From Escherichia coli (GTDB taxonomy: Bacteria > Pseudomonadota > Gammaproteobacteria > Enterobacterales > Enterobacteriaceae), in NCBI RefSeq assembly GCF_016903815.1, contig NZ_CP069973.1: a DNA stretch of 64,000 nt. One strand, written 5' to 3'. Position numbers and translations under genes: made by a program. Shown here one piece after another: positions 3,478-35,427 of this stretch (the first letter of the stretch is position 1; the number at the start of each line of letters is the position of its first letter). Below the pieces are notes generated by a model. The model was not told the origin of the DNA. It did not search any database and saw only the letters and a program-made list of their open reading frames with translations.

Positions 3478-5346
3478 ATGAGCACTGATAATAAGCAATC
3501 ATTGCCCGCGATTACCCTCGCGGCGATTGGAGTTGTCTACGGCGATATTGGTACCAGCCCGTTATATACACTTCGTGAATGTTTGTCCGGCCAGTTTGGT
3601 TTTGGCGTTGAACGCGATGCCGTGTTTGGCTTTTTATCGCTGATCTTCTGGCTGCTAATCTTTGTGGTTTCCATTAAATATCTCACCTTCGTGATGCGGG
3701 CAGATAACGCCGGTGAAGGGGGGATCCTGACGTTGATGTCGCTTGCCGGGCGTAATACGTCGGCGCGAACCACATCAATGCTGGTGATTATGGGGCTAAT
3801 CGGCGGCAGCTTTTTCTATGGTGAAGTCGTCATAACACCCGCTATTTCGGTGATGTCAGCCATTGAAGGTCTGGAAATCGTCGCCCCGCAGCTGGATACC
3901 TGGATAGTTCCCCTCTCAATCATCGTTCTCACTTTACTATTTATGATTCAAAAACATGGCACGGCTATGGTCGGTAAGCTGTTTGCGCCGATCATGCTGA
4001 CCTGGTTTTTGATTCTGGCAGTACTGGGGTTACGTAGCATTATTGCTAACCCGGAAGTGCTGCATGCGCTGAATCCGATGTGGGCGGTGCATTTCTTCCT
4101 TGAATACAAAACGGTTTCTTTTATTGCATTAGGGGCAGTGGTGCTGTCGATTACGGGGGTCGAGGCGCTGTATGCTGATATGGGGCACTTTGGTAAGTTC
4201 CCTATTCGCCTGGCGTGGTTCACCGTCGTATTACCTTCCTTGACCCTTAATTACTTCGGTCAGGGAGCGTTGTTGTTAAAGAACCCGGAAGCGATTAAGA
4301 ACCCGTTCTTCCTGTTGGCACCGGACTGGGCGCTGATCCCGCTGCTGATCATCGCCGCACTGGCGACGGTAATTGCCTCGCAGGCGGTTATCTCTGGCGT
4401 CTTCTCATTGACGCGTCAGGCGGTACGTCTGGGATATTTGTCGCCGATGCGCATTATTCACACCTCCGAAATGGAGTCAGGGCAAATCTATATTCCGTTT
4501 GTGAACTGGATGCTCTATGTCGCGGTCGTGATTGTGATTGTCAGCTTTGAGCACTCCAGCAACCTGGCGGCGGCGTACGGGATTGCGGTGACCGGAACCA
4601 TGGTGCTGACGTCTATTCTCTCGACTACCGTGGCGCGTCAGAACTGGCACTGGAATAAGTATTTTGTTGCGCTGATCCTGATTGCTTTCCTTTGTGTCGA
4701 TATTCCATTGTTCACCGCTAACCTCGATAAACTGCTCTCCGGCGGCTGGTTGCCATTGAGCCTCGGTACGGTGATGTTTATCGTGATGACCACCTGGAAG
4801 AGCGAACGTTTCCGTTTGCTGCGGCGGATGCATGAACATGGTAACTCTCTGGAGGCGATGATTGCTTCGCTGGAGAAATCACCGCCCGTTCGCGTGCCCG
4901 GGACCGCGGTGTATATGTCGCGTGCAATCAACGTCATTCCCTTTGCGCTGATGCATAACCTTAAACATAACAAGGTATTGCATGAGCGGGTGATTCTGTT
5001 AACTCTGCGCACCGAAGACGCGCCTTATGTCCATAACGTCCGTCGGGTACAGATTGAACAACTGTCGCCCACGTTCTGGCGCGTGGTGGCAAGTTATGGT
5101 TGGCGAGAAACGCCAAACGTGGAAGAAGTATTCCACCGCTGCGGTCTGGAAGGATTAAGTTGCCGGATGATGGAAACCTCCTTCTTTATGTCGCATGAGT
5201 CGTTGATCCTCGGCAAACGCCCGTGGTATTTGCGTCTGCGCGGCAAGCTGTACTTGCTGCTGCAACGTAATGCGCTGCGTGCGCCGGATCAATTTGAAAT
5301 CCCACCAAACAGGGTTATCGAACTGGGTACTCAGGTTGAAATCTAA
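3478..5346 (+). CDS. kup: KUP-family potassium uptake transporter
   Basis: 622-aa ORF rich in hydrophobic transmembrane segments; N-terminal [13 protein letters not shown] motif typical of Kup/TrkD. Confidence 0.96.
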
Positions 5347-5387: not shown

Positions 5388-6095
5388 CACAGAAAACCCC
5401 CAGCTAGGCTGGGGGTTCCGGAAAGCTTTCAGCTTTGAGCCAGTTATTAAAACCCCTTTTGATTTGTTAAAACACCTTGCGGTCTGGCAACTGCAAGTGT
5501 CAAACAAGAAATCAAAAGGGGGTCCCAATGGGGAACGAAAAGAGCTTAGCGCACACCCGATGGAACTGTAAATATCACATAGTTTTTGCGCCAAAATACC
5601 GAAGACAGGTGTTCTACAGAGAGAAGCGTAGAGCAATAGGCAGTATTTTGAGAAAGCTGTGTGAGTGGAAAAGCGTACGGATTCTGGAAGCTGAATGCTG
5701 TGCAGATCATATCCATATGCTTGTGGAGATCCCGCCCAAAATGAGCGTATCCGGGTTTATGGGATATCTGAAAGGGAAAAGCAGTCTGATGCTTTACGAG
5801 CAGTTTGGTGATTTGAAATTCAAATACAGGAACAGGGAGTTCTGGTGCAGAGGGTACTACGTCGATACAGTGGGTAAGAACACGGCGAAGATACAGGATT
5901 ACATAAAGCACCAGCTTGAAGAGGATAAAATGGGAGAGCAGTTATCGATTCCCTATCCGGGCAGCCCGTTTACGGGCCGTAAGTAACGAAGTTGGATGCA
6001 AATGTCAGATCGTGTGCGCCTGTTAGGGCGCGGCTGGTAAGAGAGCCTTATAGGCGCATTTGAAAAACCTCCGGCTATGCCGGAGGATATTTATT
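5388..6095 (+). mobile_element. IS200 insertion sequence (IS200/IS605 family, tnpA-only); boundaries approximate
   Basis: Contains a Y1/HuH transposase gene; a perfect palindrome AAAACCCCCAGCTAGGCTGGGGGTT at 5392..5416 matches the characteristic IS200 left-end hairpin; kup-rbsD spacer is about 875 bp, far longer than expected for K-12; ends set by the expected ~0.7 kb size, not by exact repeat mapping. Confidence 0.7.
5528..5986 (+). CDS. tnpA: IS200 transposase TnpA (Y1 HuH transposase)
   Basis: 152-aa product from the internal ATG (MGNEKSLAHTRWNCKYHIVFAPKYRR...HIHMLVEIPPKMSVS...); HxH motif (HIHML) present; near-identical to the Salmonella IS200 TnpA as I recall it. Confidence 0.93.
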   Translation: MGNEKSLAHTRWNCKYHIVFAPKYRRQVFYREKRRAIGSILRKLCEWKSVRILEAECCADHIHMLVEIPPKMSVSGFMGYLKGKSSLMLYEQFGDLKFKYRNREFWCRGYYVDTVGKNTAKIQDYIKHQLEEDKMGEQLSIPYPGSPFTGRK

Positions 6096-30784: not shown

Positions 30785-32260
30785 ATGGCTAACTACTTCA
30801 ATACACTGAATCTGCGCCAGCAGCTGGCACAGCTGGGCAAATGTCGCTTTATGGGGCGCGATGAATTCGCCGATGGCGCGAGCTACCTTCAGGGTAAAAA
30901 AGTAGTCATCGTCGGTTGTGGTGCACAGGGTCTGAACCAGGGCCTGAACATGCGTGATTCTGGTCTGGATATTTCTTACGCTCTGCGTAAAGAAGCGATT
31001 GCCGAGAAGCGCGCATCCTGGCGTAAAGCGACCGAAAATGGTTTTAAAGTTGGTACTTACGAAGAACTGATCCCGCAGGCGGATCTGGTGGTTAACCTGA
31101 CGCCGGACAAGCAGCACTCTGATGTAGTGCGCACCGTACAGCCACTGATGAAAGACGGCGCGGCGCTGGGTTACTCGCACGGTTTTAACATCGTCGAAGT
31201 AGGCGAGCAGATCCGTAAAGACATCACCGTAGTAATGGTTGCGCCGAAATGCCCTGGCACCGAAGTGCGTGAAGAATACAAACGTGGATTCGGCGTACCG
31301 ACGCTGATTGCCGTTCACCCGGAAAACGATCCGAAAGGCGAAGGCATGGCGATCGCTAAAGCATGGGCGGCTGCAACCGGCGGTCACCGTGCGGGCGTGC
31401 TGGAATCCTCTTTTGTTGCGGAAGTGAAATCTGACCTGATGGGCGAGCAAACCATCCTGTGCGGTATGTTGCAGGCTGGTTCTCTGCTGTGCTTCGACAA
31501 ACTGGTGGAAGAAGGCACCGATCCGGCATACGCAGAAAAACTGATTCAGTTCGGTTGGGAAACCATCACCGAAGCGCTGAAACAGGGCGGCATCACCCTG
31601 ATGATGGACCGTCTTTCTAACCCGGCGAAACTGCGTGCTTACGCGCTGTCTGAACAGCTGAAAGAGATCATGGCACCGCTGTTCCAGAAACATATGGACG
31701 ACATCATCTCTGGCGAATTCTCCTCCGGCATGATGGCTGACTGGGCCAACGACGATAAGAAACTGCTGACCTGGCGTGAAGAGACCGGCAAAACCGCCTT
31801 CGAAACCGCGCCGCAGTATGAAGGCAAAATCGGCGAGCAGGAGTACTTCGATAAAGGCGTACTGATGATCGCGATGGTAAAAGCAGGCGTTGAGTTGGCG
31901 TTTGAAACCATGGTTGATTCCGGCATCATCGAAGAGTCTGCTTACTATGAATCACTGCACGAACTGCCGCTGATTGCCAACACTATCGCTCGTAAGCGTC
32001 TGTACGAAATGAACGTGGTTATCTCTGATACCGCCGAGTACGGTAACTATCTGTTCTCTTACGCTTGTGTGCCGCTGCTGAAACCGTTTATGGCAGAGCT
32101 GCAACCGGGCGACCTGGGTAAAGCTATTCCGGAAGGTGCGGTAGATAACGCGCAGTTGCGTGATGTGAACGAAGCGATTCGCAGCCATGCGATTGAGCAG
32201 GTAGGTAAGAAACTGCGCGGCTATATGACAGATATGAAACGCATTGCTGTTGCGGGTTAA
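30785..32260 (+). CDS. ilvC: ketol-acid reductoisomerase
   Basis: ORF 30563..32260; start set at the ATG giving [19 protein letters not shown] (491 aa); NADPH-binding GCGAQG motif. Confidence 0.96.
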
Positions 32261-32276
32261 GTGCGATTCAGAGTTC

Positions 32277-32301
32277 AAGGCCTTCTCCTGAAGAAGGCCT
32301 T
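32277..32301. terminator. stem-loop between convergent ilvC and ppiC (putative bidirectional terminator)
   Basis: AAGGCCTTCTCCTGAAGAAGGCCTT palindrome; no strong T-tract on either side. Confidence 0.5.
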
Positions 32302-32305
32302 GCTG

Positions 32306-32611
<306 letters not shown>

Positions 32612-32738
32612 TCAGTCAGGGAGGGGGGACATATATGGCAAAAGCCCGGAAAATCCGGGCTTCGCAGGTCCCTCAAGGGGAGAAAACTTAGGGCCTCTAT
32701 GGGCTACAGAGTCATTATCGGGGATGGTGATTTTATTG

Positions 32739-33188
32739 TCAATTTATGAGCGATATGGCATTGATTGACTTGATGACTGCCCTCTGTATGTCTGCAACCA
32801 ACTCATGTGGCAAACATTGATTAAGATACCCCCGATAAGTCCTTGCTCTGTTTAATCGGTTTCGACTGACTTGTTGTACCAGGTCGGCTTTAGCCCAACG
32901 TATCTGCTGATCAAAGAAATGCATGTCATTGATAACATTACTGGCTATTTCAACATGCATTCCACGATTTAACTTGTCATGGTCGCGAGTGGTTGATAAT
33001 GGAACGACGATACATGCGTTGCCATTAATTTTTCCGTTGAGCACGACAACCAACCTATTTTTTATCATCTCAGGTGGAATGCGGCCATCGTAATACGTCG
33101 TGCTGAACTGTCCATTCTGGCTAACAGGATAGTTACCAAAGTTGCATTCCAGTATTTCACCAACCTTGGGGCTGAAATTAATCGCCAC
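32739..33188 (-). CDS. yifN: PemK/MazF-like toxin-family protein YifN (standalone, no adjacent antitoxin)
   Basis: ORF 32739..33230; start placed at the GTG at 33186..33188 because a strong Shine-Dalgarno (TAAGGAGAGG) lies 7 nt upstream, giving 149 aa; intrinsic terminator hairpin GCCCGGAAAATCCGGGC at 32644..32660 just downstream on the coding strand; family assignment from remembered annotation and weak motif resemblance. Confidence 0.7.
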   Translation of the reverse strand: MAINFSPKVGEILECNFGNYPVSQNGQFSTTYYDGRIPPEMIKNRLVVVLNGKINGNACIVVPLSTTRDHDKLNRGMHVEIASNVINDMHFFDQQIRWAKADLVQQVSRNRLNRARTYRGYLNQCLPHELVADIQRAVIKSINAISLIN

Positions 33189-33405
33189 GAGTAAACCTCT
33201 CCTTAGTAAACTCTGAAAAAGTAATAACACAACGTTACGACCCGATATTTTCTAAGTCTAATGGATTCATGATGAACTCCGGTTTCGGCCTTCCCTCTCT
33301 GATTTAAACATCCGCAGCCATCCGGTTAGCGGTTTTCACTCGGTCACATTCAAATGCGATTCTGCTACAATCCTCCCCCCCGTTCGAAGATTGAGCAATA
33401 CACCT

Positions 33406-35427
33406 ATGCGTCTAAACCCCGGCCAACAACAAGCTGTCGAATTCGTTACCGGCCCCTGCCTGGTGCTGGCAGGCGCGGGTTCCGGTAAAACTCGTGTCAT
33501 CACCAATAAAATCGCCCATCTGATCCGCGGTTGCGGTTATCAGGCGCGACATATCGCGGCGGTGACCTTTACCAATAAGGCGGCGCGCGAGATGAAAGAG
33601 CGTGTCGGGCAGACGTTGGGTCGCAAAGAGGCGCGTGGGCTGATGATCTCCACCTTCCACACACTGGGGCTGGATATCATCAAACGCGAGTATGCGGCGC
33701 TTGGGATGAAAGCAAACTTCTCGTTGTTTGACGATACCGATCAGCTTGCTTTGCTTAAAGAGCTGACCGAGGGGCTGATTGAAGATGACAAAGTTCTCCT
33801 GCAACAGCTGATTTCGACCATCTCTAACTGGAAGAACGATCTCAAAACACCGTCCCAGGCGGCAGCCAGTGCGATTGGCGAGCGGGACCGTATTTTTGCC
33901 CATTGTTATGGGCTGTATGATGCACACCTGAAAGCCTGTAACGTTCTCGACTTCGATGATCTGATTTTATTGCCGACGTTGCTGCTGCAACGCAATGAAG
34001 AAGTCCGCGAGCGCTGGCAGAACAAAATTCGCTACCTGCTGGTGGATGAGTATCAGGACACCAACACCAGCCAGTATGAACTGGTGAAACTGCTGGTGGG
34101 CAGCCGCGCGCGCTTTACCGTAGTTGGCGATGACGACCAGTCGATCTACTCCTGGCGCGGTGCACGTCCGCAAAACCTGGTGCTGCTGAGTCAGGATTTC
34201 CCGGCACTGAAGGTGATTAAGCTTGAGCAGAACTACCGCTCTTCCGGACGTATTCTGAAAGCGGCGAACATCCTCATTGCCAATAACCCGCACGTCTTTG
34301 AAAAGCGTCTGTTCTCCGAACTGGGCTATGGCGCGGAGCTAAAAGTTTTAAGCGCGAATAACGAAGAACATGAAGCCGAGAGAGTCACCGGCGAGCTGAT
34401 CGCGCATCACTTCGTCAATAAAACGCAGTACAAAGATTACGCCATTCTTTATCGCGGTAACCATCAGTCGCGGGTGTTTGAAAAATTCCTGATGCAAAAC
34501 CGCATCCCGTACAAAATTTCTGGTGGTACGTCGTTTTTCTCTCGTCCTGAAATCAAGGATTTGCTGGCTTATCTGCGCGTGCTGACTAACCCGGACGATG
34601 ACAGCGCATTTCTGCGTATTGTTAACACGCCGAAGCGAGAGATTGGCCCGGCTACGCTGAAAAAGCTGGGTGAGTGGGCGATGACGCGCAATAAAAGCAT
34701 GTTTACCGCCAGCTTTGATATGGGCCTGAGTCAGACGCTTAGCGGACGTGGTTATGAAGCATTGACCCGCTTCACTCATTGGTTGGCAGAAATCCAGCGT
34801 CTGGCGGAGCGGGAGCCGATTGCCGCGGTACGCGATCTGATCCACGGCATGGATTATGAATCCTGGCTGTACGAAACATCGCCCAGCCCGAAAGCCGCCG
34901 AAATGCGCATGAAGAACGTCAACCAACTGTTTAGCTGGATGACGGAGATGCTGGAAGGTAGCGAACTGGATGAGCCGATGACGCTCACCCAGGTGGTGAC
35001 GCGCTTTACTCTGCGCGACATGATGGAGCGCGGCGAGAGTGATGAAGAGTTAGATCAGGTACAACTGATGACTCTGCACGCGTCGAAAGGGCTGGAGTTT
35101 CCTTATGTCTACATGGTCGGTATGGAAGAAGGGTTTTTGCCGCACCAGAGCAGTATCGATGAAGATAATATCGATGAGGAGCGGCGGCTGGCCTATGTCG
35201 GCATTACCCGCGCCCAGAAGGAATTGACCTTTACGCTGTGTAAAGAACGCCGTCAGTACGGCGAACTGGTGCGCCCGGAGCCGAGCCGCTTTTTGCTGGA
35301 GCTGCCGCAGGATGATCTGATTTGGGAACAGGAGCGCAAAGTGGTCAGCGCCGAAGAACGGATGCAGAAAGGGCAAAGCCATCTGGCGAATCTGAAAGCG
35401 ATGATGGCGGCAAAACGAGGGAAATAA
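33406..35427 (+). CDS. rep: ATP-dependent DNA helicase Rep (SF1)
   Basis: ORF 33391..35427; start at the ATG giving [31 protein letters not shown] (673 aa); UvrD/Rep motifs. Confidence 0.96.

What the first reader, a model, noticed from the sequence alone, without database searches (positions are those of the whole stretch)
32739..33188. Standalone PemK/MazF-like yifN with its own RBS and terminator and no antitoxin partner
The 149-codon gene (GTG start preceded by TAAGGAGAGG; terminator hairpin 32644..32660) is monocistronic, sitting between ppiC and the rep promoter. Inspection of both flanks (32588..32738 and 33189..33405) shows no small ORF that could encode a cognate antitoxin. If the product is an active endoribonuclease toxin, its neutralisation would need a trans-encoded or non-proteinaceous partner; otherwise it is a domesticated or inactive member of the family. 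I recall this locus as annotated degenerate in K-12, so an intact copy may be informative.
Basis: partly seen in the sequence, partly recalled or inferred. Interest (0 to 1): 0.4.

Follow-up and report, generated by a model that had tools for sequence, protein, structure and literature searches.

The report
Orphan MazF-like toxin has RNA partner
The "antitoxin-less" MazF-like gene yifN of E. coli is real and looks enzymatically intact, and it is always followed by a conserved small RNA gene, overlooked until now, that is the likely missing partner.

Summary
Window 32739..33188 (minus strand) is an intact 149-codon gene with a GTG start, the SD TAAGGAGAGG and a downstream hairpin, and no protein antitoxin ORF sits beside it. 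It passes Pfam PemK_toxin, its model matches MazF structures, and the MazF catalytic Arg/Ser-Thr pair (R45/S65) is invariant in 48 relatives. K-12 and BL21 carry a 1-bp frameshift.

The gene is not standalone. The "terminator" is the 3' end of a 79-nt sRNA gene (32708->32630) with its own near-consensus sigma-70 promoter, which overlaps the yifN stop codon. This RNA was detected in K-12 in 2014 by RNA-seq and northern blot, but it was never linked to yifN.

A covariance model finds this RNA beside every closer YifN homologue that has downstream sequence: 38 of 38 species-representative loci, plus plasmid, metagenome and prophage-like loci. Distant homologues carry a related downstream element.

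In E. coli, 4015 of 5426 genomes carry the cassette. The RNA is full-length in all 4015, whereas yifN is often frameshifted or split. Two plasmids carry the RNA alone.

Best reading: a toxin-antitoxin-like pair in which the sRNA neutralises a MazF-fold RNase, probably by direct binding. Function is inferred, not shown.

The parts
32739..33188 (-). yifN coding sequence: 149 codons, GTG start, TGA stop. A MazF/PemK-fold protein.
   Evidence: ORF and translation. Pfam PF02452 at E=1.5e-10, above the gathering cut-off. RefSeq CDS WP_000996699.1. AF2 model matched to MazF structures at probability 1.0. R45 and S65 align with MazF R29/T52. dN/dS 0.06.
33196..33205 (-). Shine-Dalgarno sequence TAAGGAGAGG, 7 nt upstream of the GTG.
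   Evidence: Read from the sequence. Purine-rich SDs sit at the same place in homologues. Ribo-RET initiation signals at yifN are reported in 10.1101/520783.
33228..33230 (-). Alternative in-frame upstream GTG, giving a 163-aa form.
   Evidence: the ORF listing. The Ribo-RET paper reports an upstream in-frame start for yifN in addition to the annotated one. The extension is not conserved in homologues.
32714..32742 (-). Promoter of the sRNA: -35 TTGACA (32742..32737, containing the yifN TGA stop), 17-nt spacer, -10 GATAAT (32719..32714).
   Evidence: 11 of 12 consensus matches. TTGACA-like and -10-like hexamers are kept upstream of the RNA in most homologue loci. The mapped K-12 5' end lies 6-7 nt downstream.
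32630..32708 (-). 79-nt sRNA gene, called 'ecr3777(d+)' in K-12. It has a conserved single-stranded 5' GUAGCCCAU, a hairpin with a U/C-rich loop, and a terminator hairpin.
   Evidence: Covariance-model hit of 96 and 79.6 bits. The fold has MFE -27.8 kcal/mol and z -2.3. Covariation is shown. RNA-seq and northern detection in K-12 at matching coordinates (PMC4681348). There is no Rfam family. It lies next to YifN homologues in 38 of 38 species loci and in further loci.
32641..32663 (-). Intrinsic-terminator hairpin (AAGCCCGG-AUUUU-CCGGGCUU, then UUUGCC). It is shared by the sRNA and, presumably, by yifN read-through transcripts.
   Evidence: Sequence. This helix has 7 of 10 pairs with compensatory changes and 99.4% of cells paired. 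The 3' end of the K-12 RNA maps here.
32601..33350 (.). Approximate extent of the yifN-sRNA cassette, an indel polymorphism in E. coli. Genomes without it have an 86-bp ppiC-rep spacer.
   Evidence: Alignment with the empty sites of strains 536 and GPEC1337. About 4010-4016 of 5426 genomes carry the cassette. Imperfect 21-nt direct repeats lie at 32598-32618 and 33300-33320.

Best explanation
yifN and the sRNA gene immediately downstream of it form one two-gene module that behaves like a toxin-antitoxin pair with an RNA antitoxin.

Shown:
- YifN is an intact protein under purifying selection. It has the MazF/PemK fold, the catalytic Arg/Ser pair of MazF endoribonucleases, and an 18-residue insertion in the beta1-beta2 loop.
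- A 79-nt structured RNA is transcribed from its own near-consensus promoter, which starts inside the yifN stop codon. It ends at the hairpin that also follows yifN.
- Protein and RNA are co-inherited across Gamma- and Betaproteobacteria, on chromosomes, plasmids and prophage-like contigs. No protein partner is conserved.

Inferred:
- YifN is an endoribonuclease that would be harmful on its own.
- The sRNA keeps it harmless. It is made in excess from the strong promoter and is also carried as the 3' end of every yifN transcript.
- Direct RNA-protein binding (type III-like, pseudo-substrate) is more likely than antisense pairing, because no consistently placed complementarity to yifN mRNA was found.

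Loss of the module, or a block of host transcription (for example plasmid loss or phage infection), would then free the nuclease.
For: Toxin side:
- Pfam PemK_toxin scores 41.7 bits against a cut-off of 23.1.
- Foldseek top hits are MazF-mt1, B. subtilis MazF and S. aureus MazF at probability 1.0 and target-normalised TM of about 0.7; the type III toxin CptN (E=1e-2) and CcdB also appear.
- R45 and S65 are invariant in 48 relatives and align with MazF R29/T52, BsMazF R25/T48 and Kid.
- dN/dS is 0.06.

No protein partner:
-.

RNA side:
- The RNA was detected in K-12 by RNA-seq and northern blot at coordinates equal to the model hit.
- Its promoter matches consensus at 11 of 12 positions.
- Structure covariation is shown.
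- The 5' 47 nt are 70-96% identical between genera, while third codon positions of yifN are 28-55% identical.

Linkage:
- The RNA lies 22-60 nt after the stop codon on the same strand in nearly all loci.
- It is present in 38 of 38 species-representative loci with YifN of at least about 38% identity.
- It is also present in pCAR1, an ETEC plasmid, the P. savastanoi 1448A plasmid and a Klebsiella plasmid, in metagenome loci and in two prophage-like contigs.
- It is absent from empty-site E. coli.
- In three loci the RNA sits elsewhere or on the other strand (L036, L043, L046), so it acts as a separate gene.
- Distant homologues (27-35% identity) carry a related downstream element in 11 loci.

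Asymmetry expected of an antitoxin:
- The RNA is full-length in 4015 of 4015 cassette-bearing E. coli genomes.
- yifN is split in 15 of them, and 7 of 24 sampled alleles carry the 1-bp frameshift. K-12 and BL21 are among the frameshifted strains.
- Broken YifN with retained RNA occurs in L051 and L054.
- Orphan RNA copies occur on a Yersinia ruckeri plasmid and a P. aeruginosa plasmid.
- No intact YifN without the RNA was found.
Against: - No experiment shows that YifN is toxic or a nuclease, or that the RNA binds or neutralises it.
- The asymmetry is only weakly significant. The toxin gene is a 4-5 times larger mutational target, and the frameshift allele is probably one inherited event. For the 15 large disruptions against none in the RNA, P is about 0.03, assuming independence.
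- Co-occurrence shows a functional link, not its direction. An RNA cofactor would give the same pattern.
- The RNA is not repetitive and lies downstream, unlike every characterised type III antitoxin.
- PADLOC and NCBIfam have no model for the protein.
- The AF2 model is of moderate confidence (pLDDT 73), and the insertion loop is unmodelled.
- The weakest model hits (L041, L042, L044, L049, L050) draw part of their score from the terminator alone.
Confidence: 0.55

Rival explanations
1. Type I-like control. The sRNA is the antitoxin, but it works by base-pairing with yifN mRNA (at the SD or early codons) to block translation or trigger decay, not by binding the protein.
For: - The hairpin loop is U/C-rich (UUUUCUCCCC) and can pair with purine-rich SDs such as AAGGAGAGG.
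- In Photorhabdus akhurstii, Superficieibacter, the ETEC plasmid and a gammaproteobacterial MAG locus (L035), the best complementarity falls at codons 5-14.
- Because the RNA is also the 3' end of yifN transcripts, pairing in cis is possible.
Against: - The best-pairing site differs between orthologues, and scores are no better than elsewhere in the mRNA or than shuffles in most cases.
- SD-loop pairing is weak in the Pseudomonas group.
- The match between the 5' GUAGCCCA and the WAK codons is at chance level and is not kept.
- The RNA sequence is far more conserved than an antisense regulator of a diverging target needs to be.
Confidence: 0.12
2. Ribonucleoprotein, not a toxin-antitoxin pair. 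The RNA is an obligatory cofactor, guide or substrate of YifN, for example setting its target specificity or being processed by it. The pair would have another role, such as defence or plasmid establishment.
For: - The co-occurrence is strict.
- Single-stranded stretches of the RNA are invariant.
- Many copies lie on conjugative plasmids or ICE-like arrays, and near SSB or replication genes.
- The family is small and well separated from canonical MazF: 30 clusters at E<=1e-30 among 1.84 billion representatives.
Against: - RNA-only states are common and RNA-less intact YifN was never seen. This fits 'RNA protects' better than 'RNA helps'.
- The variable part of the RNA is short, and no target complementarity is evident.
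Confidence: 0.15
3. YifN is a domesticated or inactive solitary family member that needs no neutralisation, and the sRNA is an unrelated neighbour or merely a 3' UTR and terminator element.
For: - No toxicity data exist.
- Many E. coli carry broken alleles without consequence.
- The module sits at a fixed chromosomal site in E. coli and Superficieibacter.
Against: - The catalytic dyad is invariant and purifying selection is strong.
- The RNA has its own conserved promoter and travels with YifN through unrelated genomic contexts. In three loci it is on the other strand or upstream.
- The patchy, mobile-element-rich distribution is that of an accessory selfish or defence module.
Confidence: 0.08
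4. A protein antitoxin encoded elsewhere (for example MazE, ChpBI or another AbrB/RHH protein) neutralises YifN in trans.
For: - Split and cross-reacting toxin-antitoxin pairs are described in the literature (discussion in PMC10790755).
- E. coli encodes MazE and ChpBI. This rests on established knowledge and was not tested here.
Against: - YifN homologues occur on plasmids and in very different hosts, and the RNA is the only conserved companion.
- A trans partner would not explain the strict RNA linkage.
Confidence: 0.05

Closest known systems
MazF / PemK(Kid) / ChpBK type II endoribonuclease toxins (Pfam PF02452)
   Same: Same Pfam family above threshold, same fold, and the same catalytic Arg plus Thr/Ser positions. 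The C-terminal helix and the G10/E40/R111 equivalents are also kept.
   Different: There is no upstream MazE/PemI-type protein antitoxin and no operon. The protein is 149 aa with an 18-residue insertion in the beta1-beta2 loop. It forms a small, well-separated clade. Its only conserved companion is an sRNA gene.
Type III toxin-antitoxin systems (ToxIN, CptIN, TenpIN)
   Same: A protein endoribonuclease of a MazF/Kid-related fold is paired with a non-coding RNA. CptN appears among the fold hits. The RNA is produced in excess over the toxin, and the systems are frequent on plasmids and linked to phage defence (reviews PMC5086642 and PMC3401426, listed).
   Different: Type III antitoxins are tandem repeats upstream of the toxin gene, separated from it by a terminator and processed by the toxin. 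Here the RNA is single-copy and downstream, has its own promoter, and shows no tandem repeat. The 79-nt species exists in K-12, where the toxin is dead. The toxin is not a ToxN-family protein by sequence; PemK_toxin was the only Pfam family above its cut-off.
AvcID (type III-like pair of a deaminase toxin and the sRNA AvcI)
   Same: It is a precedent for a single sRNA that neutralises a protein toxin post-translationally and is lost on transcription shut-off (abstract of PMC10511110, seen).
   Different: The toxin is an unrelated enzyme (a deoxycytidylate deaminase), and the RNA is unrelated. The relative gene arrangement of avcI and avcD was not examined here.
Type I systems with non-membrane toxins and trans-acting sRNAs (for example RalR/RalA and SymE/SymR; from my own knowledge, not tested here)
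   Same: A small RNA encoded beside a soluble nuclease-type toxin.
   Different: Those RNAs act through defined antisense complementarity. No conserved complementarity was found here.
sRNA 'ecr3777(d+)' of E. coli K-12 (Romero et al. 2014, PMC4681348; also credited there to Conway et al. 2014)
   Same: It is the same RNA: 79 nt, same strand, and coordinates 3957925-3958004 (the older K-12 genome version), which shifted by +1977 equal the covariance-model hit in NC_000913.3.
   Different: It was reported only as an uncharacterised transcript between ppiC and yifN/yifO. No family, structure or link to the toxin gene was described, and it is absent from Rfam 15 and from the RefSeq annotation.

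Membership tests
PemK/MazF toxin family (PF02452) | Sequence match to the family profile above the curated threshold | tested here: met
   41.7 bits against a gathering score of 23.1, E=1.5e-10, covering residues 37-141.
PemK/MazF toxin family (PF02452) | MazF/Kid/CcdB SH3-like barrel fold | tested here: met
   AF2 model (pLDDT 73). The Foldseek PDB top 40 are MazF structures at probability 1.0 and target-normalised TM of 0.66-0.80.
PemK/MazF toxin family (PF02452) | Catalytic Arg (MazF R29) and Thr/Ser (MazF T52) | tested here: met
   R45 and S65 align to them and are invariant in 48 homologues.
PemK/MazF toxin family (PF02452) | Sequence-specific endoribonuclease activity and growth inhibition | not testable with these tools
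   No experimental data were found. K-12 and BL21 carry frameshifted alleles, and no functional study appeared in the searched literature.
Type II toxin-antitoxin system (the RefSeq label) | Adjacent, co-transcribed protein antitoxin gene (MazE/PemI type) | tested here: not met
   No suitable ORF lies in the flanks. No neighbouring protein family is conserved across 48 loci. Plasmid copies are solitary.
Type III toxin-antitoxin system | Non-coding RNA genetically linked to an endoribonuclease toxin | tested here: met
   The RNA is found beside YifN in 38 of 38 species loci and in further loci. It is expressed in K-12.
Type III toxin-antitoxin system | The antitoxin is an array of tandem repeats upstream of the toxin gene, with an intervening terminator | tested here: not met
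   No tandem repeats. The RNA is single-copy, downstream, and has its own promoter. Only L046 has two separate copies.
Type III toxin-antitoxin system | The toxin belongs to the ToxN, CptN or TenpN families | tested here: not met
   Pfam returned only PemK_toxin above its cut-off, plus a sub-threshold DUF7401 match (E=0.09). CptN appears only as a distant fold match (E=1e-2).
Type III toxin-antitoxin system | The RNA binds and inhibits the toxin protein directly | not testable with these tools
   This needs binding and activity assays or a complex structure.
Type I toxin-antitoxin system | Antisense complementarity between the RNA and the toxin mRNA that is conserved | tested here: inconclusive
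   Some orthologues pair well at codons 5-14 or at the SD, but the site is not consistent and scores are at background level.
Known RNA families (Rfam 15) | Match to a curated covariance model | tested here: not met
   Only noise below E=0.5, and nothing near any gathering score, in 32200-33600.

The most novel reading that the evidence does not exclude
YifN and its sRNA are not a toxin-antitoxin pair in the usual sense but a minimal ribonucleoprotein. In this reading a MazF-fold nuclease needs the structured RNA as a specificity or activation cofactor, for example recognising invader or ribosomal RNA through the RNA's variable U/C-rich loop. That would make it a new kind of RNA-dependent RNase carried by plasmids and by three quarters of E. 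coli strains.
Probability: 0.12. Interest if true: 0.9.

Novelty: new variant of a known kind. Interest (0 to 1): 0.72.

Why it matters
MazF/PemK toxins are the textbook type II toxins, defined by a protein antitoxin. A clade that has replaced the protein with a single structured sRNA would bridge type II and type III systems. It would also show that 'orphan' toxins in genome surveys can have RNA partners that no annotation pipeline sees.

The module is present in about 74% of complete E. coli genomes and on conjugative plasmids of Pseudomonas, Klebsiella and ETEC. It has probably been overlooked because K-12 and BL21 both carry a dead toxin next to a live RNA.

The hypothesis is directly testable with one intact allele, one sRNA clone and two point mutants. 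It also gives a candidate function to a K-12 sRNA that has been uncharacterised since 2014.

Tried and rejected
- **Protein antitoxin in the flanks or in homologue loci.** None was found. Crude gene calls around 48 loci, with all-against-all BLAST of the neighbours, gave only within-genus synteny. Recurrent neighbours were SSB, Rep3 and HTH_36/DnaD-like replication proteins, not antitoxins.
- **NCBIfam and PADLOC.** No model matched. A PDB sequence search gave only a noise hit.
- **Rfam.** No family matched the RNA.
- **Antisense pairing.** I tested unrestricted duplex folding against shuffles, visual comparison of the reverse-complemented sRNA with the 5' mRNA, and sliding-window complementarity along the whole mRNA. 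I also tested the 5' GUAGCCCA against the WAK codons with a covariation check at the Ala wobble position. No consistent site emerged. One search left out the first 9 nt of the RNA; one search covered them.
- **RNA-first scan of metagenomes with a 19-mer.** 21 of the 24 hits were chance matches by the covariance model. The 3 true hits gave 2 with YifN and 1 cut locus, so this adds little power.
- **Profile-profile alignment of the family against a single BsMazF sequence.** It was weak and partial. A MAFFT alignment with four canonical toxins was used instead.
- **Broad alignment of the downstream elements of distant homologues.** It did not give a consensus structure. Only a shared motif could be counted.
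- **Resemblance of the RNA to the 3' end of 16S rRNA.** I considered this from memory and dropped it. The shared 7-mer is expected by chance and the order of elements is reversed. It was not tested.
- **Literature.** Eight full-text searches found no paper that links yifN or its family to an RNA partner.

Full report
**1. What is at the coordinates**

The window is E. coli chromosome with the gene order ilvC(+), ppiC(-, 32306..32587), yifN(-, 32739..33188), rep(+, from 33407). The 149-codon ORF starts at a GTG preceded by TAAGGAGAGG (33205->33196) with a 7-nt spacer, and it ends at a TGA. RefSeq annotates the identical CDS in strain 7/2, which is 100% identical over the region, as 'type II toxin-antitoxin system PemK/MazF family toxin'.

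K-12 MG1655 has the same gene as pseudogene b3777. It is 449 bp long because one base is missing. BL21(DE3) is also annotated as frameshifted.

**2. The protein**

- Pfam PemK_toxin matches above the curated cut-off (41.7 bits against 23.1). NCBIfam and PADLOC have no model for it.
- Homologues are called 'YifN (PemK superfamily)' by JGI. They occur in Enterobacterales, Pseudomonas, Aeromonas, Shewanella, Legionellaceae, Xanthomonas and Betaproteobacteria.
- An alignment of 48 full-length relatives has 17 invariant residues, including R45, S65, H78, K100 and R111.
- An AlphaFold2 model (pLDDT 73; residues 32-38 below 50) matches MazF structures from M. tuberculosis, B. subtilis and S. aureus at Foldseek probability 1.0. 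The type III toxin CptN and CcdB appear further down the list.
- Aligned with E. coli MazF, B. subtilis MazF, Kid and ChpBK, YifN R45 falls on the catalytic Arg (MazF R29) and S65 on the catalytic Thr (MazF T52). YifN also carries an 18-residue insertion in the beta1-beta2 loop.
- dN/dS against the Superficieibacter orthologue is 0.06.
- The family is small. Of 1.84 billion representatives, 30 clusters at 50% identity reach E<=1e-30 and 517 reach E<=1e-3.

So the fold relationship is real, and the intact allele looks like an active enzyme. That it is a nuclease remains an inference.

**3. No protein partner**

The flanks hold no credible antitoxin ORF. In 48 homologue loci the neighbouring genes are conserved only within genera. 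The few cross-genus neighbours are SSB and replication proteins. Copies on pCAR1, an ETEC haemolysin plasmid, the P. savastanoi 1448A plasmid and a Klebsiella plasmid are all solitary.

**4. The gene is not alone: a conserved sRNA**

The promoter scan found a TTGACA-17-GATAAT promoter (11 of 12 consensus matches) on the minus strand at 32742..32714. Its -35 hexamer contains the yifN stop codon.

A published E. coli transcriptome map lists an sRNA, ecr3777(d+), between ppiC and yifO/yifN on the same strand. It is 79 nt long, was verified by northern blot, and sits at 3957925-3958004 in the older K-12 genome version (PMC4681348). Adding the 1977-bp offset gives exactly the stretch that corresponds to window 32708->32630.

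Aligning the region downstream of yifN in E. coli, Superficieibacter, Pantoea dispersa and Chimaeribacter showed a nearly invariant RNA, a conserved -10 box, and compensatory changes in the terminator stem.

Covariance models built from 4 and then 35 sequences find the RNA in the following places:
- all 38 species-representative loci whose YifN is at least about 38% identical (L014-L051);
- the plasmid loci;
- the contigs retrieved through identical proteins;
- two metagenome loci found from the RNA side;
- two prophage-like contigs.

It lies on the same strand, 22-60 nt after the stop codon, with its own TTGACA-like promoter. In Shewanella it is convergent. In Massilia and one Herbaspirillum it is upstream on the other strand, in the latter in two copies. 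It therefore works as a separate gene rather than only as a 3' UTR.

Structure support is as follows. The terminator helix has 7 of 10 pairs with compensatory changes. The first hairpin is 79% paired, with 5 of 8 pairs changing on both sides. The observed values exceed all 500 shuffles and all slid controls.

The 5' 47 nt stay 70-96% identical between genera whose synonymous sites are saturated. Rfam 15 has no matching family, and the region has no tandem repeats.

Distant homologues (27-35% identity; Alphaproteobacteria, a planctomycete, three viral contigs) lack this exact RNA. In 11 loci they carry a related motif, GCYTYAAGWCC, 45-85 nt after the stop codon, followed by a terminator.

**5. 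Population picture in E. coli**

The cassette (about 32601..33350) is an indel polymorphism. About 4010-4016 of 5426 complete genomes carry it. The rest, for example strains 536 and SF-468, have an 86-bp ppiC-rep spacer with neither gene.

The 121-nt sRNA-plus-promoter segment is full-length and at least 95% identical in all 4015 carriers. The yifN CDS is split in 15 genomes, and 7 of 24 sampled full-length alleles are the 449-bp frameshift type.

Elsewhere, broken YifN with retained RNA occurs in Rahnella woolbedingensis and a Photorhabdus strain. RNA copies without any YifN within 2.5 kb occur on a Yersinia ruckeri conjugative plasmid (91 bits) and a P. aeruginosa megaplasmid. I found no intact YifN without the RNA.

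**6. Mechanism**

The pattern has four features:
- an enzyme-like toxin under selection;
- no protein partner;
- a strictly linked RNA with a strong promoter;
- an RNA that is retained when the toxin decays, and that occurs alone on plasmids.

This is what a toxin-antitoxin pair with an RNA antitoxin would produce. I tested the antisense (type I-like) version. The U/C-rich loop can pair with purine-rich SDs, and some orthologues pair well at codons 5-14. However, the best site moves between orthologues, scores are at background level, and the 5'-tail/WAK-codon match does not covary.

By elimination, and because MazF-fold and ToxN-type toxins are structurally related, direct RNA-protein inhibition is the more likely mechanism. 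This step is inferred.

The asymmetry argument is only moderately strong, because the toxin gene is the larger mutational target and the frameshift is probably one inherited event. A cofactor or guide role for the RNA is not excluded.

**7. Comparison and novelty**

YifN is a member of the PemK/MazF family by sequence, fold and catalytic residues. It fails the defining feature of a type II system, which is a protein antitoxin. It resembles type III systems in logic but fails their defining architecture: upstream tandem-repeat RNA, an intervening terminator, and a ToxN, CptN or TenpN toxin. The RNA itself was seen in K-12 in 2014 but was left uncharacterised.

Eight full-text searches found no paper that connects the two. 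The library covers open-access papers and bioRxiv only.

I therefore class it as a new variant of a known kind: a MazF-fold toxin with a single-copy, downstream, independently transcribed sRNA partner.

**8. Verdict**

The real finding is the yifN-sRNA module. My confidence is about 0.85 that the two are functionally linked and about 0.55 that the RNA is the antitoxin. The mode of action is open.

Noticed in passing
L002:3263-4110 (E. coli HH97, NZ_CP116409.1): In this assembly the whole yifN-sRNA cassette is replaced, position for position, by a C-rich degenerate version in which many A, G and T read as C. No gene is annotated there. It looks like a local assembly or basecalling artefact rather than biology.
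   Followed up: no
window 32598-32618 and 33300-33320: An imperfect 21-nt direct repeat (TGAATTAAACATTGTCAGTCA / TGATTTAAACATCCGCAGCCA, 76% identity, 702 bp apart) brackets the sRNA-yifN cassette. It could be a remnant of the insertion event or chance.
   Followed up: no
L003:2833-2876 (K-12), against window about 32605: K-12 and many other lineages have an extra 44 bp between the sRNA terminator and ppiC that the window strain lacks. It partly duplicates the AATTGTCAG motif.
   Followed up: no
L101:2500-2583 (Yersinia ruckeri plasmid NZ_CP133441.1); L102:2500-2581 (P. aeruginosa megaplasmid NZ_CP095921.1): High-scoring copies of the sRNA (91 and 73 bits) occur with no YifN within 2.5 kb. In Y. 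ruckeri the copy is divergent from a plasmid replication-initiator gene. They may be 'anti-addiction' antitoxin-only copies.
   Followed up: partly
L053, L055, L056, L059, L061, L063, L064, L066, L107, L108, L109 (45-85 nt after the YifN-like stop codon): Distant YifN-like proteins (27-35% identity) are followed by a longer conserved element (GUAGUGCGCCUCAAGUCCAC..., then an intrinsic terminator). It shares a GCC-Y-AAG core with the E. coli-type RNA and may be a second class of the same partner RNA.
   Followed up: partly
L071 (pCAR1, 80-92 kb); L021, L026, L027; L036; L043, L046: Many homologues sit in mobile-element settings. In pCAR1 the gene lies in a long one-directional array of small unknown ORFs with an orphan N6-methylase, a GNAT and phosphatases. 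In Xenorhabdus and Pseudomonas it is near an SSB gene. In Shewanella it lies directly after a Rep3 initiator on a 2.2-kb contig. In Massilia and Herbaspirillum it lies after an HTH_36/DnaD-like gene.
   Followed up: partly
L046:3975-4061 and 4132-4220 (Herbaspirillum sp. Sphag64): Two tandem copies of the sRNA, each with its own terminator, lie on the opposite strand upstream of the YifN homologue. This is the only locus seen with more than one copy.
   Followed up: no
window 33189-33215 (minus strand): The yifN SD is flanked by a short direct repeat (GAGTTTACT AAGGAGAG GTTTACTC). It is largely kept in Superficieibacter, which suggests a conserved element in the translation-initiation region.
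   Followed up: no
L034:4435-4803(+) and 5616-5954(-); same in L037 (Rahnella): In Rahnella the YifN-sRNA module is flanked by two inverted paralogous ORFs of unknown function (122 and 112 aa, no Pfam match).
   Followed up: no
L076 (Vibrio phage 10N.239.311.D05_PE001, 12713-13132): Eleven small Vibrio tectivirus-like elements encode a distant PemK-like protein (27% identity) at one genome end, directly after a LexA/S24-like repressor gene. The locus ends at the gene, so a downstream RNA could not be checked.
   Followed up: partly
window 32586-32615 (minus strand): A second promoter-like site (CTGACA-18-GATCAT) lies between the sRNA terminator and ppiC. It matches the constitutive RpoD promoter assigned to ppiC by genomic SELEX (PMC3946193). 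A 2008 array study listed yifN/yifO among the transcripts rising fastest after acid shift in K-12.
   Followed up: no
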